Shown here in pieces: positions 6,116 through 19,329 of a stretch of DNA of 20,000 bases (position 1 is its first letter; every line of letters begins with the position of its first letter). This stretch comes from an uncultured virus (IMG/VR IMGVR_UViG_3300031578_009156) (Duplodnaviria; Heunggongvirae; Uroviricota; Caudoviricetes): IMG/VR virus record IMGVR_UViG_3300031578_009156; one strand, 5' to 3'. The translations under genes and the position numbers were made by a program. The notes below the pieces were generated by a model. It saw only the letters and a list, made by a program, of their open reading frames with translations, did no database searches and was not told the DNA's origin.

Positions 6116-7240
6116 CTAAAGAGGGGAGCTTCTAGGGCTTACACCCAAGCTCGCCAGTCCGCGAGCCAAAATGTTCAGAGACGCATTTAAGTCTCTGTCC
6201 ATTTCCAAACTGCAAAAAGGACAAGAGTGGACACGAACGGACAATGCTTTTTCGACAATCTGACCACAGCGAGAACACATCTTGGTGGTGTTGCGCGGAT
6301 CGACCAGCACACACGAACGACCGGCCCATGCTGCCTTGTACGTCGTGTACTGTACCAGTTGGCCCCACGCCGCATCCGAGATGCTCTTGTTCATGCTGCG
6401 CCAGTTGCCATCTTGCATGTCCTGGATATTCAAGTCCTCGAAGACCACGATCTGAAATTCATCTACCAGGCGTCTGCTGAGTTTGTGCGCAAAGTCGGCA
6501 CGCCGGTTCGCAATGCGCTGGTGGATGTGTTGAATTACCCGCTTGCATCGGGTATGCTCAGGTGTTCCCTTTTCGCACTTGGAGAGCTTGCGCTGTGCCT
6601 TGGCAAGCGCCTTTTCGTCCTTGCGGAAAAAACGCGGGTTGGCGATCATCTCGCCGGTGGACAGGGTCGCGAATTTTTCAAGTCCCAGGTCGATGCCAAT
6701 GACATTGGGAACTGGGGGCAAAGGAATGGACTCAACCTCACAGGAAAAGCAGGCATACCAATTACCCAAGGCGTCGCGCCTGACAGTGAGCGTCTTGATT
6801 TTACCCTCAATAGGGCGATGCAATCTGATCTTGACGTTGCCGATCTTGGAAAGATAGAGTCGTTCATCACTGGTGAGCTTGAATCCGCTCTGTGGATAGG
6901 TGAAAGAATCATAGCGGTCCGCTCCGCGAAACCGAGGATAGCCGGGGTTCTCTCCGCTTTCTCTCATGCGCCTGAAAAAGTGCTGGAGTGCCAGATCGAC
7001 ACGGGTTTGCGCATTTTGCAGACACTGCGAGAAAGCGTTCGAGAGTTCAGGCTTTTCCTGTTTCCATCTGGTGAGAAGTTTGTTTGTGTCGAACAGAGAC
7101 AACGACATCTGTTGTTCTTGCCATGCACCACGCCGCACCTCAAGAGTCTTATTGTAGACCCACCGACAAGCGTCGAGAGATACCTGCATGGCTTTGCGTT
7201 GGGCTCGGGTTGGATAGAGTCTGAACCGGAACGTCTTCAT
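6116..7240 (-). CDS. tnpB: RNA-guided endonuclease TnpB
   Basis: MKTFRFRLYPT HTH, RuvC-I GIDLG, RuvC-II FEDL, Zn finger CSRC/CPFC, RuvC-III DRDLNAS. Confidence 0.95.
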   Translation of the reverse strand: MKTFRFRLYPTRAQRKAMQVSLDACRWVYNKTLEVRRGAWQEQQMSLSLFDTNKLLTRWKQEKPELSNAFSQCLQNAQTRVDLALQHFFRRMRESGENPGYPRFRGADRYDSFTYPQSGFKLTSDERLYLSKIGNVKIRLHRPIEGKIKTLTVRRDALGNWYACFSCEVESIPLPPVPNVIGIDLGLEKFATLSTGEMIANPRFFRKDEKALAKAQRKLSKCEKGTPEHTRCKRVIQHIHQRIANRRADFAHKLSRRLVDEFQIVVFEDLNIQDMQDGNWRSMNKSISDAAWGQLVQYTTYKAAWAGRSCVLVDPRNTTKMCSRCGQIVEKALSVRVHSCPFCSLEMDRDLNASLNILARGLASLGVSPRSSPL

Positions 7241-7246
7241 GGCTCT

Positions 7247-7275
7247 ATTGTATCACGTATTAAGGCAGGTGTCAA
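7247..7275 (-). promoter_or_regulatory. Sigma70 promoter for a probably leaderless tnpB mRNA
   Basis: Minus strand TTGACA-N17-TACAAT, ending 6 nt before the ATG. Confidence 0.7.
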
Positions 7276-7833
7276 GTGCTTAATATCAGTAAACCGACGA
7301 CATTAGTGGCGTGTTCCCAGTGCGGGCGGGACTGGCCCCCCCAGCACCTGGTCGCGGGCCTGTGCGAGGACTGTGCGGCGAGGCGGATCGGGGCGCAAGC
7401 CCTCGTGGCCGCCTCCATCGAGGCGAGGGGGTATAGGGAGGGATGGGATCCCCAGGAGTTTGCAGCGCGTCAGTGTTGCAAACTGATGGAGGAGTTGGCG
7501 GAACTCCTGAAAGCCGTCTGCGACAAAAGCCCGACCAGTTACCACGTGTGGGCGTTTTTTCTGTCAGAGGGGGGCAGGCTGGCGCGGGGGGCATTCGATG
7601 GCCCGCGTGAATTGTGGTGGAAGGACGACCAGGTCCAGGTTGATGCACCACAGGCGATGAAGGAACTGGCAGACCTGCAGGTGGTCGTGTTCTGTCTGGC
7701 GCAGGTCTTGGTGGAACTAGCGGGGCAGCCGTTCGACATCGTGCGGGCGGCAATCGAGAAGGCCGAGGCTGGCGTGGGGCGGGGGGTGCGGGGGCAAATC
7801 GAGGGGGAAACAGACCAAACGCTTGACAAGTAG
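7276..7833 (+). CDS. MazG-like NTP pyrophosphohydrolase with N-terminal Zn ribbon (original start separated by IS)
   Basis: CSQC..CEDC; KLMEELAEL and KELADLQVV MazG-type motifs; original start is probably ATG 6090. Confidence 0.65.
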   Translation: MLNISKPTTLVACSQCGRDWPPQHLVAGLCEDCAARRIGAQALVAASIEARGYREGWDPQEFAARQCCKLMEELAELLKAVCDKSPTSYHVWAFFLSEGGRLARGAFDGPRELWWKDDQVQVDAPQAMKELADLQVVVFCLAQVLVELAGQPFDIVRAAIEKAEAGVGRGVRGQIEGETDQTLDK

Positions 7834-7851
7834 GGACCTATGATGTATAAT
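7823..7851 (+). promoter_or_regulatory. Consensus sigma70 promoter
   Basis: TTGACA-N17-TATAAT. Confidence 0.85.
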
Positions 7852-7883
7852 AGAGACAAATTGATGAGAGGAGGGGAAGGCAA

Positions 7884-8513
7884 GTGGTAGCAAGAGGAAA
7901 GCAGCAAGCGCGGGGCTTGCCATTGTGGCCCGAGGAGTGGGCGAACCTGGAGCAGTTGGCAGCGGAGTTCGACACGTGTCCCCCATCAGGCCCAAACGCC
8001 GGTCACCCATCGTGGCGTTCTCTGGTCAAGGAGATCGCGCGGGGTAACATCAGCCTGGTGCGGGAGAGCGAGGGGCAGGCAGTCCATAAACTGTACGACT
8101 CCAAGGTTTGCCCGTTCTGCGGCGAGACGACCACGGTGGTGGCGGGCGGGATTCCTCACCTGCGGGCGCACGTCCGCAAGGGGGAGGCTGAGGAGGTCTT
8201 GGTCGCGGGTGAGCGGCAGTTCCGCAAGCCTGGGGAGGTCTACCCCAACGAGGACGAGGTAGAAGTCGTGATGCGGGCGGGCGAGTACATCCCAGCCCCC
8301 ACGACCGTCTGCCCGTTCTGTGACCGCGAGGTAACGGCCTCTGGTGGCAGCGTATTGCACATGCGGGCACACGTCCGCAAGGGCGAGGCCGAGGAGATCG
8401 AGGTTGATGGCGGGCGCACGTTCCGCCGACCAGGGGAAACTTATGCCCCGAACAGGGAGCGGTTCGTGATCGTCATCAGGCGGGCTGGGGAGAGCGAGGG
8501 GCCAGCAGAATAG
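7884..8513 (+). CDS. Protein with two tandem C2H2-type zinc-finger repeats
   Basis: CPFC-X12-HLRAH and CPFC-X12-HMRAH, 67-aa period; AGGAGG RBS. Confidence 0.7.
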   Translation: MVARGKQQARGLPLWPEEWANLEQLAAEFDTCPPSGPNAGHPSWRSLVKEIARGNISLVRESEGQAVHKLYDSKVCPFCGETTTVVAGGIPHLRAHVRKGEAEEVLVAGERQFRKPGEVYPNEDEVEVVMRAGEYIPAPTTVCPFCDREVTASGGSVLHMRAHVRKGEAEEIEVDGGRTFRRPGETYAPNRERFVIVIRRAGESEGPAE

Positions 8514-8521
8514 GACGTACT

Positions 8522-8642
8522 GGGGGTGCTTGGCTTCGACGGGGGGCGGTGTGGTTGGTAGGTGAAAAGGCCCATTGAACGACACCGAAGGCCACGGATT
8601 GACAAACTCCGGACATGGGTTCAATTCCCATCACCTCCACTA
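8522..8642 (+). ncRNA. Miniature tmRNA-like RNA (tRNA-like domain only)
   Basis: 5' GGGGGTGCTTGGCTTCGACGGGG and 3' CTCCGGACATGGGTTCAATTCCCATCACCTCCA match tmRNA termini; acceptor stem has G3.U70 and A73; only ~120 nt long. Confidence 0.75.
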
Positions 8643-8698
8643 GCATGGCGCGTCAGGTGGACGTAGTCTGGGGTTCTGCATCAGGCAGCCATGCGAAC

Positions 8699-8850
8699 GC
8701 ACGGGGCAGCGAGGGCGGTCCGACGGATGGGCGTGGGCCGGGGCTACTGTTGGCCGAGGTGGTACTGGATACGCGGGCGCTGCCCGTAGTGGAGGGTACA
8801 ATCGGCGTCGGCATCGGCTAGGCCGAATGCGCAACCTCGTTGTCCCGTGT
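8699..8850 (+). ncRNA. Putative structured RNA of unknown class
   Basis: 16-bp closing helix 8699-8714 / 8835-8850 with 3 G.U pairs on the + strand. Confidence 0.4.
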
Positions 8851-8853
8851 GAC

Positions 8854-8881
8854 TTGACAAATCGCCAGACTATGGTATACT
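8854..8881 (+). promoter_or_regulatory. Sigma70 promoter upstream of the TnpB-CRISPR locus
   Basis: TTGACA-N16-TATACT with extended -10 TG. Confidence 0.75.
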
Positions 8882-8886
8882 ATACA

Positions 8887-9032
8887 TTGTCACACGCATA
8901 GAGGCGGGCGTTTTGCTTTAGTAGCCGTCTCACAACTTCAAAGGTAAGTTGGGCAAAGCGCCCTCATTATGGTGGACTCGCGTCCCGCTGTGCGTGTGAC
9001 AACGACGGCATACCATGATGGGGGCGCTTTGC
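8887..9032 (+). promoter_or_regulatory. Structured 5' leader with alternative helices (c4/CI-antisense-like switch)
   Basis: Helix A 8887-8901/8988-9002; crossing 21-bp helix B 8953-8973/9012-9032 covers the initiation region. Confidence 0.6.
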
Positions 9033-9033
9033 T

Positions 9034-10233
9034 ATGAAGGTTCTCAGAGCCTACAAGACAGAGCTTGATCCAACGAACAAGCAGTGCACATGGTTCATGC
9101 GATGTGCGGGCGCTGCCAGGTTCGTGTATAACTGGGCGCTGGCCGACCGCAAGGAGCGATGGGAACAGGGCCAGCAAAACACGAACTTGTATGAGCAAAA
9201 ACGGCGATTCAATGCCCTGAAACGCGAGCAGTGGCCGTGGCTTTATGATGTGCCTTACACCCTGCAAGATGCTGCCTTTGTCAACTTAGATACTGCTTAC
9301 CAGAACTTCTTTCGACGTGTGAAGCAAGGCCAGGAAAAAGTCGGCTTCCCCAAGTTCAAATCCCGTAAGCGCGGTATTGGCTCTTTCATTCTGCGCGGAA
9401 GCATCCACGTAGAGGAAGGTCGAATCAAGTTACCACGTATCGGATGGGTGAGGCTGAAGGAACATGAGTATCTACCCTCCGAGCAACAGGTTAAACTCTT
9501 GTCCGTGACTATCTCGGAGCGAGCAGGCAGGTGGTACGCTTCTGTACAGGTGGAAGAAGATGGGCCAGAACCAGAAACAGGCACGGATATTATCGGTGTG
9601 GACCTGGGCATATCCCACCTGGCAGTATGCTCAGATGGTACAGTATTTGAGAATCCAAAAGCACTTATACAGGCAGAACGTAAACTCGCACGGCTACAGC
9701 GTGAACTAGACCGCAGAACGCAAGGCGGCCAGAACTGGCATAAGACGAAAGCCAAGATCGCGCAGTGTCACGCCAGGATTGCCAATGTCAGGCAGCATGC
9801 GCTTCACCAGGTCAGTCATTACATCACGGCGAAAGTCAAGCCTGAGACAGTAGTGATTGAGGATTTGAACGTGAATGGTATGCTCCAGAATCATCACCTG
9901 GCAAGGGCAATTTCGGATGTGAGTTTTGGCGAACTGAGGAGACAGATCGAGTACAAGGCCAAGTGGCACGGCGTCAAGGTTGTGATAGCCGATAGATTCT
10001 GGCCGTCAAGCAAGGCTTGCTCGCGGTGTGGATGTGTCAAAAGCAACTTGACCTTGGCCGACAGAACCTATACCTGTGATGACTGCGGGTTGGTTATAGA
10101 TCGTGACTTGAACGCGGCGTTAAATCTTGCCGCGCTAGGGAAGGCGAAAACATCGCCGGATTGCCTGGGGAGTTGCGGTGCAGGAAGGCCGCACTGTGAA
10201 CCAGGAACCGAGCAGCCGCTTATCGCGGCATAG
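9034..10233 (+). CDS. tnpB: TnpB / Cas12f-like RNA-guided nuclease, CRISPR-adjacent
   Basis: RAYKTELDP HTH, RuvC-I GVDLG, RuvC-II VIEDL, CSRC/CDDC Zn finger, RuvC-III DRDLNAA; all catalytic residues present; no tnpA. Confidence 0.92.
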   Translation: MKVLRAYKTELDPTNKQCTWFMRCAGAARFVYNWALADRKERWEQGQQNTNLYEQKRRFNALKREQWPWLYDVPYTLQDAAFVNLDTAYQNFFRRVKQGQEKVGFPKFKSRKRGIGSFILRGSIHVEEGRIKLPRIGWVRLKEHEYLPSEQQVKLLSVTISERAGRWYASVQVEEDGPEPETGTDIIGVDLGISHLAVCSDGTVFENPKALIQAERKLARLQRELDRRTQGGQNWHKTKAKIAQCHARIANVRQHALHQVSHYITAKVKPETVVIEDLNVNGMLQNHHLARAISDVSFGELRRQIEYKAKWHGVKVVIADRFWPSSKACSRCGCVKSNLTLADRTYTCDDCGLVIDRDLNAALNLAALGKAKTSPDCLGSCGAGRPHCEPGTEQPLIAA

Positions 10234-10245
10234 GTCTCGGATGGC
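10160..10245 (+). ncRNA. Putative omegaRNA/reRNA scaffold overlapping the tnpB 3' end
   Basis: CCTGG..CCAGG, TGCGG..CCGCA and CCGAG..CTCGG helices; GCCTG..GAACCAGGAA pattern resembles TnpB right ends. Confidence 0.5.
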
Positions 10246-10261
10246 ACATTATAATTCTAGT

Positions 10262-10464
10262 GTGCACCCCACGGGCGTGTGGGGGGTTGGTTAGAGGTAC
10301 GGTCACACAATTGCGGTACGATGGTGCACCCCACGGGCGTGTGGGGGGTTGGGTTGACCTGATCCCGACCGACGCGGACAAGTGCGTGCACCCCACGGGC
10401 GTGTGGGGGGTTGGTCGCCCGCGCAGGCTTCCCCAGTGCACCCCACAGGCGCGTGGGTGTTTGG
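10262..10464 (+). CRISPR. CRISPR mini-array, four 29-nt repeats, spacers 33/33/21 nt
   Basis: GTGCACCCCACGGGCGTGTGGGGGGTTGG at 10262, 10324 and 10386; degenerate copy (4 mismatches) at 10436; internal CCCCAC/GTGGGG hairpin; TATAAT at 10250-10255 upstream and terminator downstream. Confidence 0.92.
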
Positions 10465-10495
10465 ACCTGGCCCCCGTGCTTACTTCACTGAGAAG

Positions 10496-10528
10496 CAGGC
10501 TCCGCTATTGCGGGGCCTGTTTTGTTTT
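10496..10528 (+). terminator. Intrinsic terminator after the array
   Basis: CAGGCTCCGC-TATT-GCGGGGCCTG-TTTTGTTTT. Confidence 0.85.
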
Positions 10529-10550
10529 CCCCTATTCCCCTACCCCCTAC

Positions 10551-10651
10551 CCCCAACCTTAACATTTTTGAAAATCCCTGTCAACCTCTTGACAACTGGT
10601 AAGTTATGTGCTATAATGATGCCATACTCAGGACAGGGAGACAGGACAATG
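10551..10651 (+). promoter_or_regulatory. Repeated promoter/operator/RBS cassette, copy 1
   Basis: CCCCAACCTTAACATTT; TTGACA 10589 -N17- TATAAT 10612; ACAACT-N4-AGTTAT; GGACAGGGAGACAGGACAATG. Confidence 0.85.
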
Positions 10652-10987
10652 AACCGCAACGCGAAGGCACTCCAAACGAAGTCGAAGAAGAACCAGGTAC
10701 AGCCCATCGGGCGGGGGGAGTTTATGGTCACCTCCGCAGCCTCTGGCAGCCGATACCTGGTCACTGACCTGGCGGGTGGCGGGCTTCAGTGTACTTGCGA
10801 GTGGAGCAAGTACCACAGGACAGACCTCAAGCCCTGCTCCCACTGTCTGGCGGTAGAAGAATGGTTGGAGCAGGCGGGGAGCCGCAGCCTGAGTTTCTGG
10901 GCTTCTGAGGATAACGCCAAGCGGCAGCATCGGCCGGCGCGGTTGGTGGGGCTGGGACTGTGGGCGACCAGCAGGGTGGCGGCATAA
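10649..10987 (+). CDS. SWIM zinc-finger protein
   Basis: F-V-S...Y-V...CTC-X12-CSH SWIM signature; start at the cassette ATG. Confidence 0.8.
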   Translation: MNRNAKALQTKSKKNQVQPIGRGEFMVTSAASGSRYLVTDLAGGGLQCTCEWSKYHRTDLKPCSHCLAVEEWLEQAGSRSLSFWASEDNAKRQHRPARLVGLGLWATSRVAA

Positions 10988-11556
10988 TGAGAAACGGCTT
11001 TCTGTCCCTCGAAGCAGAAAAGGCCCAGCAGGAAGGGGCAGCGCGGGCCAGCGACTGGCGGCCCACGGTCGCCCGCACTTCTGACAAGGCAATCGTCATC
11101 CGCTCACGCAAGAGCGGCGGCAGGAGCGGGTTCGTGGCCTGGATGGCCGCCAACCTCCCTACCTTCACCCACAACCCCCGCCAGGATCGGTGGGAGGGGC
11201 CGCTCGATGACCTGGGGACGGCGGTCGAGGCGCTGAGGTACTGCAACCTCTCGGACGGTGCGCGGGAGTGGTTGGCCGGGCACAAGGACCTCTTGACCCT
11301 GGCGCTGGAGCAGGCGGCGCGGTGGCAGATCGGGCAGCCGCAGGTTTGGCTGGTTCCCGACGTGGCCTACCTAGAGCAGGAAAACCACGGGATCAGGACC
11401 CTGGTCTTGCACCTGGCCGACCACGACACCCCCCTGGAGATCGCCCACCCCGACTATTGCACGGGGGTTTGGATCCCAGCAAAGGGGCTGAGACAGGCTT
11501 ACAGGGAATGGGTAGCAGGGGTTCCGCCAGTCGAGGCGGGACGGGTTAGATTTTAA
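10987..11556 (+). CDS. Hypothetical phage protein
   Basis: TAATG coupling with the upstream gene; 189 aa. Confidence 0.6.
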   Translation: MRNGFLSLEAEKAQQEGAARASDWRPTVARTSDKAIVIRSRKSGGRSGFVAWMAANLPTFTHNPRQDRWEGPLDDLGTAVEALRYCNLSDGAREWLAGHKDLLTLALEQAARWQIGQPQVWLVPDVAYLEQENHGIRTLVLHLADHDTPLEIAHPDYCTGVWIPAKGLRQAYREWVAGVPPVEAGRVRF

Positions 11557-15781: not shown

Positions 15782-17653
15782 ATGCTAATCTACGAACCGA
15801 GCGGAAGGGCCAGGGAGTATGCGGCGCTGGCCCTCAATGTGTACAAGGGCTGTGAGCATCGGTGTGTCTACTGTCTAGATGGTGACACGCTTGTTCTGAA
15901 GTCGGACTTGTCCGCGGTGTCTTTGCGTACCATAGTCCCTGGTGATGAAATAGTTGGCGTTGCAAACCTGGGGAGTGGTACGACTAATACTCTGAAGTTT
16001 GTTCCGTCCGTAGTTGAGGCAGTTTGGACTGCGCGGAAGCCTGTTTTTGAGATCGAACTGGAAAACGGGATAACTGCAAAGTGCTCAGGTGACCACAGAT
16101 GGCTTACTGATAGGGGCTGGAAGTTCACCACGAATGCGATGGCGGGGACCATTGATCGCGCGCATCTTACGACCAATAATTCAATCAGGCTGGTTTCATC
16201 TCTGGCAATCACTCCCCAGGAGACCGATGACTATAGATTGGGGTACTTGTCTGGTGTAATCAGGGGAGACGGTCATATCGGTGTGCATGGCCCCTATCAC
16301 AGAAGGACAGCAAGACCTAATAGAGCGGTACGTATTTTTGATGAAGTCGTGCACTCTTTTAGTCTCCGCATGAAAGACGTAGCTGCACTGAGAAGGACAG
16401 AAGGCTATCTTTTGTATTTCGGCGTTACTGTGAAGCGCTTTATTTTCAACGATAGCATGGAGGGCATCAGAACTAGTGCAGAGCACACCATAAAATCTAT
16501 TCAACACTTAATCGAATGGCGGGACACATCAGAGTACGCGCGGGGATTCTTGGCTGGCATCTATGATGCGGAAGGCTCCTACAGCCAGGTGATCAGAATT
16601 TCAAACAGTGATCCAGAAATACTGCGGCGGTGCGAAGATGGACTGCGCACTTTTGGATTCGGTTTTGTGTACGATGTTCCACAACAGGCCCCTAACTGTA
16701 TTGTTCACAGTATTCGTTTACAGGGTGGGCGTGCTGAGATTATCAGGTTTGTTCAGTTGGTCAACCCAGCAATTGAGCGCAAGCGAACAATCTCTGGGCA
16801 AACTGTCAAGCAAAGTTCACGGGTGATCGGCATCAAGAACTTGGGCTATGAGGACACGTTATATGATATCCAGACGAGCACTGGGAACTTCATTGCTAAT
16901 GGGATGGTGTCCCACAACTGTTACGCTCCCAGCGCCACCTACAGCAGCCCCACCGACTTCTCCCACCCCAAGACGCGCGGGGCCGACTTCATCCCCAACT
17001 TGTTCCGCGAGGTCTCGCGGTGCCCTGGTCGCGGGCGGCGCGTGCTCCTCTGCTTTACCTGTGACCCATACCAGCCATTCGACGTCGAGGAGGGCATTAC
17101 ACGGCAGGCAATCCATGTTCTGCACGGCGGCGGCTACGCGGTCGAGGTGTTGACCAAGGGCGGCCAGCGGGCACTGCGCGACCTGGACCTGTTCGGGCCA
17201 GGGGATGCTTTCGCAACGACTTTGACCTTGCTGGACGACCTGCGCTCGATGACCTGGGAGCCAGGGGCGGCGCTTCCTGGTGACCGCATCACTACCATCG
17301 AGGCGTTTCACGGGGCGGGGATCGAGACCTGGGTCAGCCTGGAGCCAGTGCTCGACCCAGACACGGCCCTGGAGATCATCCGCCGAACCCACGAATTTGT
17401 AGACCTCTACAAGGTGGGTAAATTGAACTACGAAAACACGCTCCCCGTGCATTTGCGTAGTCTGGTTGACCACATAGACTGGCGGGCGTTCGGGATCGCG
17501 GCGGTGGACCTGCTGCGCTCCCTGGGCAAGCCGTACTACGTCAAGAAGGACCTGGCGGCGTTCCTGCCCCCTGAGTACCAGGCCCTATGCGGGGAGATGC
17601 CCAAGGCGGCCCCCATCCCCCAGCCCCAGGTGGGCCAGATGACCCTATTCTAA
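15782..17653 (+). CDS. Radical SAM protein (SPL/Rv2578c-like) with intein
   Basis: GCEHRCVY|CYA split CX3CX2C, CDPYQP, VLTKG, WEPGA, WVSLEP; 274 aa after splicing. Confidence 0.88.
   Translation: MLIYEPSGRAREYAALALNVYKGCEHRCVYCLDGDTLVLKSDLSAVSLRTIVPGDEIVGVANLGSGTTNTLKFVPSVVEAVWTARKPVFEIELENGITAKCSGDHRWLTDRGWKFTTNAMAGTIDRAHLTTNNSIRLVSSLAITPQETDDYRLGYLSGVIRGDGHIGVHGPYHRRTARPNRAVRIFDEVVHSFSLRMKDVAALRRTEGYLLYFGVTVKRFIFNDSMEGIRTSAEHTIKSIQHLIEWRDTSEYARGFLAGIYDAEGSYSQVIRISNSDPEILRRCEDGLRTFGFGFVYDVPQQAPNCIVHSIRLQGGRAEIIRFVQLVNPAIERKRTISGQTVKQSSRVIGIKNLGYEDTLYDIQTSTGNFIANGMVSHNCYAPSATYSSPTDFSHPKTRGADFIPNLFREVSRCPGRGRRVLLCFTCDPYQPFDVEEGITRQAIHVLHGGGYAVEVLTKGGQRALRDLDLFGPGDAFATTLTLLDDLRSMTWEPGAALPGDRITTIEAFHGAGIETWVSLEPVLDPDTALEIIRRTHEFVDLYKVGKLNYENTLPVHLRSLVDHIDWRAFGIAAVDLLRSLGKPYYVKKDLAAFLPPEYQALCGEMPKAAPIPQPQVGQMTLF
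15872..16918 (+). mobile_element. Intein with LAGLIDADG homing endonuclease (349 aa)
   Basis: N-terminal CLDGDT, block B SGDHRW, YLSGVIRGDG and FLAGIYDAEG, C-terminal YDIQTSTGNFIANGMVSHN|C; AT-richer than flanks. Confidence 0.93.
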
Positions 17654-17770: not shown

Positions 17771-17846
17771 ATGCTCAGTTGGCCGACAGGCAGAGGCGAC
17801 GGCAAGTGAAAGGCCGTTGCCTTTTTGTTATCTGTGGGCTACACAA

Positions 17847-17919
17847 CCGCGAGTCGTCTAGTGGCTCAGGACGCTGGTTGCTCAGACCAGAGACGGGGGT
17901 TCAAGTCCTCCCTCGCGGA
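17847..17919 (+). tRNA. tRNA-Glu(CTC)-like, non-canonical G33
   Basis: Acceptor CCGCGAG/CTCGCGG, D arm GTCTAGTGGCTCAGGAC, anticodon arm CTGGT-TGCTCAG-ACCAG, T arm GGGGG-TTCAAGT-CCTCC; no encoded CCA. Confidence 0.75.
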
Positions 17920-17922
17920 CTT

Positions 17923-19329
17923 ATGGCTAGAATACAGTTGTTCTCAGGCAAGACGCTGGTCGCTGATGCCAGTTTCATCGCCCGCGTTGTCAACAGTGGT
18001 AACTACGACCGCGTAGTTTTGCCCTGCGTTGGCAGTTTCACCGTCCCCGCCGCTGTCGCTGCGGCCGGCTTCCCCCGTGACCGCATCTTCACGTCAGACG
18101 TCTCGATTTACAGCAGCGTCATGGGCTACCTGCTCGACCCAGACAAACGCATCGAGCAGATGGGCCTGGAGCCGTCTGAGGAGGTCGCTTGCTTCGTGGA
18201 GGGGGCTGCTGATGATTTGGACTATGCCGCCGGCGTACTGGTGGCAATCGGCTGGTTGCAGCAGACGCGGGAGACACGCTACCACGCCAACTTGAGGCGC
18301 GAGATCGTCACCCACAGGGCTATCTACCGCGCACAAATACGGGCGGAACTGGAGAAACTGGTAGAGGCTGCCAGCGGTGTTCACTATGAGGACCACGATG
18401 TTAGGGACGTAGTAGCATCGGTCACGGACGATCCCCGCACTTTCCTGTATTTTAACCTGCCAGGGTTCAAGTTCGGCTACACTAAAATGTTCGGACCTGC
18501 TGAGGAGGCGTTCGGCTGGGGCGGGGTGGTGGTCCAGGAGTTCTTGCCGCAATACAGCGGTGAGGTCTACGAGTCGCTGGTCGGCAAGCCCGTCACGGCC
18601 ATGACCTACGTCAGCAGCGGTACGTCGTCCGACCGCATGGAGGAGGTTCCATCTGGCTGGGTGAAGGTCTACGCCAACGTGGCAGATGAGAAAAAGACGG
18701 GCTACCTGGTGACCAACCAACCCCACATGGATACCAGCATACACGCGCCGACCCTCGACCACGACATCCGCCACTTCCCCATATACGATGATGAGGAGAT
18801 CACGCCCGAGACACAGGTCGCTTTCGTGCAAGTGGACGAGCATACCTGTATGTACTACCGCGACCTGTTCGTCCACAGGCTCGGCATCACGAAGGCGGAG
18901 CAGTACTTCCTGATGCTACTCGATGGGCGCGTGGTGACCGCGCTGGGGCTGGCTATGAGAGATTACCGTCTCAATAGTTCAAGTACTTGTGAGTATACTG
19001 GAGAGGTGTTCGGCATCACTAAGACCTCCCGCCGCTACGCCCGCCTGGGCAAACTGTTCATGCTCTGTCTCACGTCGGGTGACTTTAAGCGGCTCCTGCT
19101 GACAGCATACCCATTCACACAATTTAGGGAGCCGCGTGGCATGAGAACGTCATCTATCACGATCCACCCAGAGGGCAAGACGGATCGTGGCGTGATGAAA
19201 CTGATCCACCGCGAGGAGATTGGTGATGGCAGGTTCAAGGTGATTTACCAGGCTGACTTCAGGGATGATACCTGGCCTGAAACTGTGCAGACGTGGCTGC
19301 GAAAGTGGGGAGGCAAGAGCCGTGAGTGA
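17923..19329 (+). CDS. Putative DNA-modification protein: degenerate adenine-MTase fold plus C-terminal GNAT/Mom-like domain
   Basis: VVLPCVGSF (motif I-like), TSDVS, FLYFNLPGF (motif IV-like); C-terminal RRYARLGKL; the upstream TTG start is rejected because it would span the tRNA. Confidence 0.5.
   Translation: MARIQLFSGKTLVADASFIARVVNSGNYDRVVLPCVGSFTVPAAVAAAGFPRDRIFTSDVSIYSSVMGYLLDPDKRIEQMGLEPSEEVACFVEGAADDLDYAAGVLVAIGWLQQTRETRYHANLRREIVTHRAIYRAQIRAELEKLVEAASGVHYEDHDVRDVVASVTDDPRTFLYFNLPGFKFGYTKMFGPAEEAFGWGGVVVQEFLPQYSGEVYESLVGKPVTAMTYVSSGTSSDRMEEVPSGWVKVYANVADEKKTGYLVTNQPHMDTSIHAPTLDHDIRHFPIYDDEEITPETQVAFVQVDEHTCMYYRDLFVHRLGITKAEQYFLMLLDGRVVTALGLAMRDYRLNSSSTCEYTGEVFGITKTSRRYARLGKLFMLCLTSGDFKRLLLTAYPFTQFREPRGMRTSSITIHPEGKTDRGVMKLIHREEIGDGRFKVIYQADFRDDTWPETVQTWLRKWGGKSRE

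What the first reader, a model, noticed from the sequence alone, without database searches (positions are those of the whole stretch)
8522..8642. Miniature tmRNA lacking the mRNA-like domain
Seen: both tmRNA termini in normal order (GGGGGTG..TTCGACGGGG and CTCCG-GAC-T arm-CACCTCCA) with alanine identity G3.U70/A73. Only ~60 nt lie between them (hairpin CGGTGT..ACACCG) instead of ~250 nt of pseudoknots and tag ORF; the 3' end is ACTA, not ACCA. Known: the tRNA-like domain binds SmpB and EF-Tu and is alanylated. Inference: a phage decoy or tag-less rescue RNA that could titrate SmpB or block proteolytic tagging. An att remnant would normally keep only one end. A tiny GCC-ACG-GAT-TGA frame near 8591 is a speculative resume frame.
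Basis: partly seen in the sequence, partly recalled or inferred. Interest (0 to 1): 0.85.

Follow-up and report, generated by a model that had tools for sequence, protein, structure and literature searches.

The report
Phage tag-less mini-tmRNA with conserved arm
A soil phage carries a real 121-base gene for only the alanine-accepting, tRNA-like end of the bacterial ribosome-rescue RNA (tmRNA), a type already known from one mycobacteriophage, here in a longer form whose middle is a conserved folded arm rather than a tag-coding message.

Summary
Window 8522-8642 (+) matches Rfam tmRNA end to end (65.9 bits, gathering 47, E 5.9e-24). Only 62 nt stand where the model has 314 positions. G3:U70, A73, the D-loop analogue and the T arm are intact.

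It lies in phage-like DNA from soil metagenomes. It is not a one-off deletion. Pattern scans of viral contigs gave over 100 distinct mini-tmRNAs with strong covariation (95.2% of cells paired against 66.0% when shuffled).

The kind is already published: the 'TLD only' tmRNA of mycobacteriophage DS6A (PMC4131195, PMC11915505). This scan has also noted such RNAs on other DNA many times.

What is specific here is a rarer long form, with 10 distinct members found. Its middle is a conserved arm: an outer helix, a GUA/GAA internal loop, an inner helix and an A-rich loop containing GCCC. The helices are supported by compensatory changes.

The most likely function is an alanine-charged decoy that competes with host tmRNA for SmpB and stalled ribosomes. 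That is inferred from precedent and was not tested here.

The parts
7823..7851 (+). sigma-70-like promoter (TTGACA, 17 nt, TATAAT; 12 of 12) upstream of the ORF that precedes the RNA gene. It is the likely source of a co-transcript.
   Evidence: 3 promoter-like sites found in 7800-9100 against a mean of 0.3 in shuffles. No promoter-like site lies between 7851 and 8522.
7884..8513 (+). Upstream ORF of 209 aa with an internal duplication and CxxC-type motifs. Function unknown. It ends 8 nt before the RNA gene and is context only.
   Evidence: repeats D2 and D3. One search gave only sub-threshold Pfam hits. No relatives were found. RNA-library contigs cover 7913-8414 at 100% identity.
8522..8642 (+). 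Mini-tmRNA gene. The mature RNA probably runs 8522-8639, with a CTA trailer replaced by CCA after transcription (inferred).
   Evidence: Rfam RF00023 65.9 bits, E 5.9e-24. Model R1 63.4 bits. Model R2 121.6 bits, though the window was one of R2's 5 training sequences.
8522..8528 (+). Acceptor stem, 5' strand (G1-G7), including G3.
   Evidence: Pairs 7 of 7 with 8632-8638. Across the class, G3:U70 is present in 97 of 101 sequences.
8529..8540 (+). D-loop analogue CTTGGCTTCGAC.
   Evidence: Aligned to the Rfam consensus. GG and TTCGAC are invariant or nearly so in alignment A3, but TTCGAC was part of the search pattern.
8540..8544 (+). Helix P2a, 5' strand, pairing with 8607-8611.
   Evidence: helix 2 is 96.5% paired, and 5 of its 6 pairs show changes on both sides.
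8550..8556 (+). Arm, outer helix 5' strand (TGTGGTT), pairing with 8590-8596 (GGCCACG).
   Evidence: helix 3: changes on both sides at 6 of the 6 pairs modelled, 96.7% paired in 10 long forms. The seventh pair (8556 with 8590) is read from this sequence only. The alignment was fitted to the model.
8557..8560 (+). GGTA, the 5' side of the internal loop. Relatives have AGTA.
   Evidence: GTA is invariant in 10 of 10. The full AGTA...GAA signature is present in 7 of 10.
8561..8564 (+). Arm, inner helix 5' strand (GGTG), pairing with 8583-8586 (CACC).
   Evidence: helix 4: 3 of 4 pairs show changes on both sides, 94.4% paired.
8565..8582 (+). Apical loop AAAAGGCCCATTGAACGA. It is A-rich and contains GCCC.
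   Evidence: the loop's GCCC run is nearly invariant in the 10 long forms (8 of 10 have GCCC). The loop resembles the AAAGCC...GG core of the short forms.
8587..8589 (+). GAA, the 3' side of the internal loop.
8597..8606 (+). Unpaired tail GATTGACAAA between the arm and the P2a 3' strand. It contains TGA.
   Evidence: Relatives have TTAAC-like tails of 7 to 25 nt. By my reading, a stop triplet is present in 8 of 10. No frame is implied.
8615..8631 (+). T arm: ATGGG, TTCAATT, CCCAT.
   Evidence: helix 3 is 99.8% paired, and 4 of its 5 pairs show changes on both sides.
8632..8639 (+). Acceptor stem 3' strand with U70 (8636), then the discriminator A73 (8639).

Best explanation
Window 8522-8642 is a functional phage gene for a tag-less mini-tmRNA. 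It consists of the complete tRNA-like domain of tmRNA joined to a 62-nt folded arm, in place of the roughly 250-nt message-and-pseudoknot domain.

Shown here:
- It matches the tmRNA model end to end.
- It belongs to a large family of phage RNAs whose acceptor, P2a and T helices covary.
- Its arm is shared, helix for helix, by nine other distinct viral sequences.

Inferred:
- It is transcribed from the perfect promoter at 7823-7851 together with the upstream ORF.
- Its 5' end is cut by RNase P, and its CTA trailer is replaced by CCA.
- It is charged with alanine by the host AlaRS through G3:U70 and A73.
- It is bound by host SmpB and EF-Tu.
- Because it has no resume codon or tag frame, it competes with host tmRNA for SmpB and for stalled ribosomes. 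Trans-translational tagging is therefore reduced during infection.

The role of the conserved arm is unknown. It may contact a protein or the ribosome.
For: - Rfam RF00023: 65.9 bits against a gathering score of 47, E 5.9e-24, model 1-374 with a 62-nt middle.
- Phage-like context: DnaB helicase, DNA methylases, PAPS reductase, ParB and phage-typical domains, in 24 ORFs scanned.
- Family size: 114 of 120 loci from a pattern that specified no acceptor stem nevertheless have 7 of 7 acceptor pairs, G3:U70, A73 and a 5 of 5 T stem.
- Covariation in the family, 101 sequences: 95.2% of cells paired against 66.0% when shuffled; covariation score 0.709 against 0.141 (0 of 500 shuffles as high); slid controls 0.08-0.11.
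- G3:U70 is kept in 97 of 101. This argues that charging with alanine is under selection.
- Long-form arm, 10 distinct sequences: 98.1% paired against 71.1%; the outer helix has changes on both sides at 6 of 6 pairs and the inner helix at 3 of 4.
- DS6A's published 'TLD only' RNA is hit by the same model at 61.4 bits, against 63.4 for the window.
- PMC4131195 (passages read) states that a similar molecule strongly inhibits tmRNA, perhaps by titrating SmpB.
- Two long-form relatives have sigma-70-like promoters just upstream (read).
- RNA-library contigs cover the upstream ORF and 8662-8800 at 100% identity.
- A 170-nt RNA-library contig carries a 90%-alike copy of 8530-8599 inside different tmRNA-like ends.
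Against: - Nothing here shows the RNA itself. The RNA-library contigs laid do not cover 8522-8642 of this phage, and DNA can be present in such libraries.
- Alanylation, SmpB binding and inhibition were not tested. The inhibition experiment (Mao et al. 2009) was done with a similar molecule in E. coli, and I know it only through citing papers.
- No diverged relative of this phage was found, so conservation at this locus could not be checked.
- The single-sequence fold is no better than shuffles (z -0.48).
- A pure SmpB sponge would not need G3:U70 or a conserved arm, so the decoy model may be incomplete.
- The covariation alignments were fitted to the models, and 5 of the 10 long forms trained model R2.
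Confidence: 0.55

Rival explanations
1. It is a productive, tag-free rescue RNA. Ala-mini-tmRNA with SmpB enters stalled ribosomes and takes over the nascent chain. The chain is then released without a degradation tag, either by a release factor reading a stop triplet in the short unpaired tail (TGA at 8600-8602) or by drop-off and peptidyl-tRNA hydrolase. Ribosomes are freed for phage translation.
For: - G3:U70 is kept in 97 of 101, which implies charging and ribosome entry rather than mere protein binding.
- By my reading, the tails of 8 of 10 long forms contain a stop triplet.
- PMC11915505 (passages read) reports natural tmRNAs with tags of only 2 residues, so very short messages exist.
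Against: - The tail is 10 nt long and sits directly beside helix P2a. There is no conserved resume context or frame, 2 of 10 long forms lack a stop triplet, and the roughly 80-nt short forms have no tail at all.
- Stop triplets are expected by chance in AT-rich unpaired stretches.
- The only experimental report, known to me indirectly, is of inhibition.
Confidence: 0.15
2. The tRNA-like frame is a carrier, and the conserved arm is the active part. The arm binds or distracts a host or phage factor. Candidates are a nuclease or toxin that attacks structured translation RNAs, or a translational GTPase acting through a sarcin-ricin-like internal loop.
For: - The arm's architecture is conserved in 10 distinct sequences from unrelated contexts while its helix sequences change freely.
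- The invariant GTA and GAA flank the inner helix in the orientation of the bulged-G (sarcin-ricin) motif. That signature is recalled from general knowledge and was not tested.
Against: - This rests on sequence signature only. The window has GGTA rather than AGTA, and 3 of 10 lack the full signature.
- No Rfam family matches the arm.
- No partner gene is shared among 5 long-form loci within 2.5 kb.
- Most family members (the short forms) lack this arm.
Confidence: 0.12
3. It is a decaying relic: a phage copy of tmRNA that lost its middle by deletion, or host ssrA sequence picked up at an integration site, with no present function.
For: - Phages integrate into ssrA and can carry fragments of it (stated in PMC9004378 and PMC4131195, passages read).
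- The 29-nt 3' half occurs identically in 25 bacterial genome loci.
- No diverged relative of this phage was available to test conservation at the locus.
Against: - Both ends are present in order with 7 of 7 acceptor pairs, and all identity elements are intact.
- The middle is not random leftover. It is an arm shared with nine other distinct viral sequences, with compensatory changes.
- No integrase was found among the 24 ORFs scanned in the window.
- The 25 bacterial hits are from diverse, mostly unrelated lineages.
Confidence: 0.08
4. It is part of the neighbouring TnpB (IS605-family) element at 9034-10233, for example its guide RNA or its cargo.
For: It lies 391 nt upstream of a TnpB gene, and a second TnpB gene lies at 6116-7240 on the other strand.
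Against: - TnpB guide RNAs lie at the 3' end of the gene, not upstream (general knowledge).
- A separate promoter (8854-8881) and inverted repeats (8887-9032) lie between the RNA and the gene.
- None of the other long-form loci shares a neighbour protein with the window.
Confidence: 0.02

Closest known systems
'TLD only' (CDS-less) tmRNA of Mycobacterium phage DS6A (Hudson, Lau and Williams 2014, PMC4131195; tmRNA database paper 2025, PMC11915505)
   Same: - Phage-borne, with a complete tRNA-like domain (G3:U70, A73, T arm).
- No tag frame and no pseudoknots.
- Both end in CACTA.
- Both are hit end to end by Rfam tmRNA and by my model R1: DS6A 61.4 bits, window 63.4 bits.
- Unannotated in the DS6A GenBank record.
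   Different: - DS6A is 83 nt with a 20-nt middle and scores below Rfam's gathering score (43.2 against 47).
- The window's RNA is 121 nt with a 62-nt arm of conserved architecture that DS6A lacks.
- There is no sequence similarity outside the tRNA-like domain.
Canonical one-piece tmRNA (SsrA; Rfam RF00023), including full-length phage copies
   Same: The acceptor stem with alanine identity, the D-loop analogue, the P2a helix and the T arm. The site passes the family's gathering score.
   Different: It lacks the resume codon, the tag reading frame and pseudoknots PK1-PK4. Full-length phage tmRNAs found in the same scans are 350-400 nt.
CDS-less organellar tmRNAs (jakobid mitochondria; Mallomonadaceae plastids, about 65 bp, as reported in PMC11915505)
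   Same: They are reduced to little more than the tRNA-like domain.
   Different: They are organellar and co-occur with a nucleus-encoded SmpB as the cell's own system. They are not a viral extra copy, and no comparable arm is described for them (passages read only).
Short-form phage mini-tmRNAs (77-82 nt) seen in viral contigs here and noted repeatedly by this scan
   Same: The same tRNA-like frame. Their AAAGCC...GG core resembles the apical part of the window's arm.
   Different: They lack the outer helix, the GTA/GAA internal loop and the unpaired tail. The window belongs to the rarer tail of 95-124 nt, plus three members of about 133 nt.

Membership tests
tmRNA (Rfam RF00023) | tRNA-like domain: 7-bp acceptor stem with G3:U70 and A73, D-loop analogue, T arm | tested here: met
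   7 of 7 acceptor pairs, G8524 opposite U8636, A8639, T arm 8615-8631. Score 65.9 bits against the gathering score of 47.
tmRNA (Rfam RF00023) | mRNA-like domain: resume codon and a tag reading frame ending in a stop codon | tested here: not met
Only 62 nt lie between the P2a strands. The GCN-to-stop frames in it are not conserved among the 10 long forms.
tmRNA (Rfam RF00023) | Pseudoknots PK1-PK4 | tested here: not met
   Infernal aligns none of them. I considered a PK1-like pairing of GCCC with an upstream G run and dropped it, because in relatives that G run belongs to the outer helix.
Phage TLD-only (tag-less) mini-tmRNA, DS6A type | Intact tRNA-like domain with the message domain replaced by a short hairpin, encoded by a phage | tested here: met
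   phage-like genes; the same model hits DS6A and the window.
Phage TLD-only (tag-less) mini-tmRNA, DS6A type | Helices maintained by compensatory change across members | tested here: met
   14 of 18 pairs show changes on both sides; covariation 0.709 against 0.141 when shuffled (0 of 500). The alignment was fitted to the model.
Phage TLD-only (tag-less) mini-tmRNA, DS6A type | Binds SmpB and/or inhibits trans-translation | not testable with these tools
   Known only from the statement in PMC4131195 and PMC11915505 citing Mao et al. 2009, which I could not read.
Long-arm subfamily of mini-tmRNAs (defined here) | P2a, outer helix, (A/G)GTA, inner helix, A-rich loop with GCCC, inner helix return, GAA, outer helix return, unpaired tail | tested here: met
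   the window fits every element, with GGTA in place of AGTA. There are 10 distinct members.
Sarcin-ricin (bulged-G) internal loop motif | AGUA opposite GAA forming the S-turn with non-Watson-Crick pairs | tested here: inconclusive
   Sequence signature only: AGTA/GAA in 7 of 10 long forms and GGTA/GAA in the window. The consensus is recalled, not taken from a call, and no 3D test was possible.
Ordinary tRNA-Ala | Cloverleaf with D arm and anticodon arm | tested here: not met
   ARAGORN finds no tRNA at the site, and the Rfam tRNA model does not report it.
att-site fragment of ssrA left by integration | Only the 3' part of ssrA, next to an integrase | tested here: not met
   Both ends are present and paired. 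There is no integrase family among the 24 ORFs scanned, but only 20 kb is visible.

The most novel reading that the evidence does not exclude
The long-arm mini-tmRNAs are not passive sponges but a distinct phage tool. They are charged with alanine and enter stalled ribosomes. They then use the conserved arm, with its sarcin-ricin-like GUA/GAA loop and invariant GCCC loop, together with the short stop-containing tail. With these they either release nascent chains untagged or engage a translation factor or defence nuclease. This would be a second, virus-specific mode of ribosome rescue or anti-defence built on the tmRNA frame.
Probability: 0.15. Interest if true: 0.8.

Novelty: new variant of a known kind. 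Interest (0 to 1): 0.5.

Why it matters
Trans-translation is the main ribosome-rescue and protein-tagging pathway of bacteria, and some phages depend on it or carry full tmRNA copies.

A stripped-down, chargeable tmRNA made by phages is a natural inhibitor or re-router of that pathway. The only published example I found is DS6A. The scans here show over 100 distinct versions in viral metagenomes, so it is a common phage strategy that standard annotation misses: ARAGORN did not call this one, and DS6A's falls below Rfam's threshold.

The long form in this window adds a conserved arm of unknown role. That gives a concrete handle (arm deletion, pull-down, probing) for asking what these RNAs do beyond binding SmpB.

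Tried and rejected
**Searches for relatives of this phage**
- blastn of 8400-8760 against phage records: no match.
- tblastn of the upstream ORF: no match.
- tblastn of DnaB: nothing closer than 34% identity.
- The search for related loci in viral contigs with the upstream ORF and with DnaB: none confirmed.
- The one metagenome hit, L148, is 100% identical to window 7247-11303 and adds nothing.
- No whole genome is held for this window.

**Host clue.** The exact 29-nt 3' half occurs in 25 bacterial loci of diverse lineages, which is not informative.

**RNA evidence**
- The contigs of two RNA libraries do not cover 8522-8642 of this phage. That is no evidence either way.
- The joint 8605 to 8699 in one low-depth DNA contig has a 20-letter side and is not interpreted.

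**Structural ideas dropped**
- A PK1-like pseudoknot (GCCC with an upstream G run): the G run is part of the outer helix in L161, L167 and L231, and the geometry is unfavourable.

**Other negative results**
- Rfam search of the arm alone: only a chance-level hit, E 3.7.
- Shared neighbour genes among 5 long-form loci: none.
- Literature: 'mini-tmRNA', 'tmRNA-like', 'truncated tmRNA', 'tag-less tmRNA' and 'TLD-only' gave no relevant paper. Searches gave only the DS6A statements. Mao et al. 2009 is not in the library.
- CRISPR-like array: spacers have no significant match in phage records, and the repeat is absent from viral contigs.
- Earlier-notes look-ups by sequence and by place: nothing.

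Full report
**Observation**

The sequence at 8522-8642 contains, in normal order:
- a 7-bp acceptor stem (8522-8528 with 8632-8638) with G3 opposite U70, and A73 at 8639;
- the tmRNA D-loop analogue CTTGGCTTCGAC;
- helix P2a (8540-8544 with 8607-8611);
- GGAC and a standard T arm (8615-8631).

Rfam's tmRNA model matches it end to end: 65.9 bits, gathering 47, E 5.9e-24. It places 62 nt where the model has 314 positions. ARAGORN calls nothing there. The 3' end is ACTA.

**Context**

No whole genome is held for the window. Twenty-four ORFs were scanned against Pfam and PHROGs. They include:
- a DnaB-type helicase, C5 and N6 DNA methylases, and a PAPS reductase;
- two ParB-like proteins, DUF488, and a phage DAM-like/GNAT protein;
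- an intein-bearing ORF;
- two TnpB (IS605 OrfB) genes, at 6116-7240 (-) and 9034-10233 (+).

There is no integrase and no SmpB among them. The DNA is held almost completely by six runs labelled soil metagenome. It has no close relative in the phage records or viral contigs. One metagenome contig, L148, is identical to 7247-11303.

The RNA gene starts 8 nt after the stop of a 209-aa ORF of unknown function (7884-8513). A perfect TTGACA-17-TATAAT promoter at 7823-7851 precedes that ORF. No promoter-like site lies directly before the RNA, and no terminator-like site follows it. Co-transcription and processing are therefore the likely route (inference).

**Is it a one-off deletion?**

No. I scanned viral contigs with a pattern that asks only for TTCGAC, a 16-46-nt gap, GGAC and a T loop.
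- 114 of the 120 also have a perfectly complementary 7-bp acceptor stem at the right distance, G3:U70, A73 and a 5 of 5 T stem.
- With a 47-77-nt gap, 11 of 80 loci do.
- A sample of 20 of those 80 loci holds mostly full-length or permuted tmRNAs and tRNA clusters.

In all there were 115 distinct candidates, of which 104 carry every hallmark. Lengths to A73 peak at 77-82 nt, with a tail of 95-124 nt.

I built a covariance model from 105 sequences and realigned 101 hits from 100 sources. This set left out 9 near-duplicate loci of the 103 and added four long forms. On that alignment:
- 95.2% of cells are paired, against 66.0% when shuffled.
- The covariation score is 0.709 against 0.141 (0 of 500 shuffles as high). 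Slid controls give 0.08-0.11.
- 14 of 18 pairs show changes on both sides.
- G3:U70 is present in 97 of 101.

The alignment is fitted to the model, which leans towards the structure. The acceptor result is independent of that.

CCA is encoded in only 32 of 103 and CTA in 12 of 103. The window's ACTA is therefore ordinary for the class.

**What is known**

- PMC4131195 (Table 2 and text passages read) lists 'Mycobacterium phage DS6A (TLD only)'. [quoted passage not shown] It cites Mao et al. 2009.
- PMC11915505 (passages read) repeats this. It also reports CDS-less plastid forms and 2-residue tags.
- I could not read Mao et al. 2009.

I fetched DS6A (accession recalled). The RNA lies unannotated at record positions 28478-28560. 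It is 83 nt, ends in CACTA, and scores 43.2 bits with Rfam, below the gathering score. My model R1 scores it at 61.4 bits.

Five literature searches found no description of a wider phage family.

The scan's own notebook holds 155 notes on such RNAs in at least 120 genomes. This is therefore a repeat of a recurring finding on new DNA.

**What is specific here: the arm**

The long forms are not random in the middle. Ten distinct sequences share one architecture: the window, L002, L161, L167, L202, L209, L231, L232, L235 and L241. From 5' to 3' it runs:
- P2a;
- an outer helix of 4-7 bp;
- an invariant GTA, mostly AGTA;
- an inner helix of 3-4 bp;
- an A-rich loop containing GCCC (8 of 10) and ending in AAGA;
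- the return strand of the inner helix;
- GAA;
- the return strand of the outer helix;
- an unpaired tail of 7-25 nt;
- the P2a return strand.

I built a second model from five of them and realigned all ten. On that alignment:
- 98.1% of cells are paired, against 71.1% when shuffled.
- Covariation is 0.792 against 0.220 (0 of 500).
- The outer helix shows changes on both sides at 6 of 6 pairs, and the inner helix at 3 of 4.

Two caveats apply: the alignment is fitted to the model, and half the sequences trained it.

In the window the elements are:
- outer helix 8550-8556 with 8590-8596;
- GGTA 8557-8560;
- inner helix 8561-8564 with 8583-8586;
- loop 8565-8582;
- GAA 8587-8589;
- tail 8597-8606.

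This fold evaluates at -34.1 kcal/mol.

AGTA opposite GAA, in this orientation, is the sequence signature of the sarcin-ricin (bulged-G) motif. That is recalled knowledge, and it is a lead rather than a test.

The apical part resembles the AAAGCC...GG core of the short forms, so the long form looks like a short form with an added helix, loop and tail.

No Rfam family matches the arm. No neighbour protein is shared among five long-form loci. Two long forms, L002 and L232, have sigma-70-like promoters immediately upstream (read).

**The proposed resume frame**

GCC ACG GAT TGA (8591-8602) begins inside the 3' strand of the covarying outer helix and is not conserved. I reject it.

By my reading, the tails of 8 of 10 long forms do contain a stop triplet (the window's is TGA at 8600-8602). 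This keeps a 'resume equals stop' release idea alive only as a low-probability rival. The tail abuts P2a, has no conserved frame, and is absent from the short forms.

**RNA evidence**

Contigs from one RNA library cover 7913-8414 and 8662-8800 at 100% identity. A second RNA library holds a 170-nt contig that is 90% alike over 8530-8599, but with different tmRNA-like flanks. That is a related long-form mini-tmRNA.

These are contigs from libraries that may also contain DNA. They show presence, not transcription, and they do not cover this phage's RNA gene.

**Mechanism**

Shown:
- Identity as a tmRNA tRNA-like domain.
- Membership of a covarying phage family.
- A conserved arm.

Inferred, from established tmRNA biology and the DS6A precedent:
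- RNase P processing and CCA addition.
- Alanylation through G3:U70 and A73.
- Binding by SmpB and EF-Tu.
- Competition with host tmRNA, so that tagging falls.

The near-universal G3:U70 suggests that charging, and hence ribosome entry, matters. A simple SmpB sponge would not require that. The decoy model may therefore be incomplete.

My estimates are:
- decoy or competitor: about 0.55;
- tag-free rescue: 0.15;
- arm-centred function: 0.12;
- relic: 0.08;
- part of the TnpB element: 0.02.

**Verdict**

This is a real feature whose interpretation is broadly right but not new in kind. It is a new variant, the long-arm form, of a published but little-studied phage RNA.

Noticed in passing
window 10262-10464: A CRISPR-like mini-array lies 29 nt after the TnpB gene (9034-10233). 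It has four 29-nt direct repeats (GTGCACCCCACGGGCGTGTGGGGGGTTGG, the fourth degenerate), each with an internal palindrome. The spacers are 33, 33 and 21 nt, and a TATAAT-containing AT-rich leader precedes it. The 29/33 spacing recalls type I-E arrays (recalled, not tested). No significant protospacer was found in phage records, and the repeat is absent from viral contigs.
   Followed up: partly
window 6116-7240 (-) and 9034-10233 (+): Two TnpB (IS605 OrfB) genes flank the RNA locus. They are only 33% identical and share no DNA similarity. Inverted repeats at 8887-8904/8985-9002 and 8953-8973/9012-9032, and a TTGACA-16-TATACT promoter at 8854-8881, lie just upstream of the second gene.
   Followed up: partly
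viral contig loci L003-L122: Short-form (77-82 nt) tag-less mini-tmRNAs are abundant in viral contigs. They share a core of P2 helix, AAAGCC, a small GC hairpin and AG.
   Followed up: yes
L070 1674-1753 and 2986-3064: One viral contig carries two mini-tmRNA genes about 1.2 kb apart.
   Followed up: no
window 8530-8599, RNA-library contig of run X8: A 170-nt contig from an RNA library is 90% alike over the arm region but has different acceptor-side and T-arm flanks. This is a related long-form mini-tmRNA in the same kind of habitat.
   Followed up: no
window 8662-8800: An RNA-library contig covers this GC-rich stretch between the RNA gene and the TnpB promoter at 100% identity. A possible small ORF (ATG at 8649, ending at 8821) lies there.
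   Followed up: no
window 7884-8513: The ORF just upstream of the RNA gene has an internal tandem duplication (80-nt copies 201 nt apart, 76% identical) with CxxC motifs. It gives only sub-threshold zinc-ribbon-like Pfam hits, and I found no relatives in the collections I searched.
   Followed up: partly
window 15782-17653: A 623-aa ORF has intein splicing and LAGLIDADG domains and a weak radical-SAM N-terminus. It is probably an intein-interrupted gene.
   Followed up: no
window 17847-17920: A tRNA-Glu (CTC) gene lies here. The listed ORF 17779-19329 overlaps it, so that ORF's real start is probably downstream.
   Followed up: no
L242 679-761 (phage DS6A record 28478-28560): The published DS6A TLD-only tmRNA is not annotated in the GenBank record and scores below Rfam's gathering score (43.2 against 47). 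Standard pipelines will therefore miss this class.
   Followed up: yes
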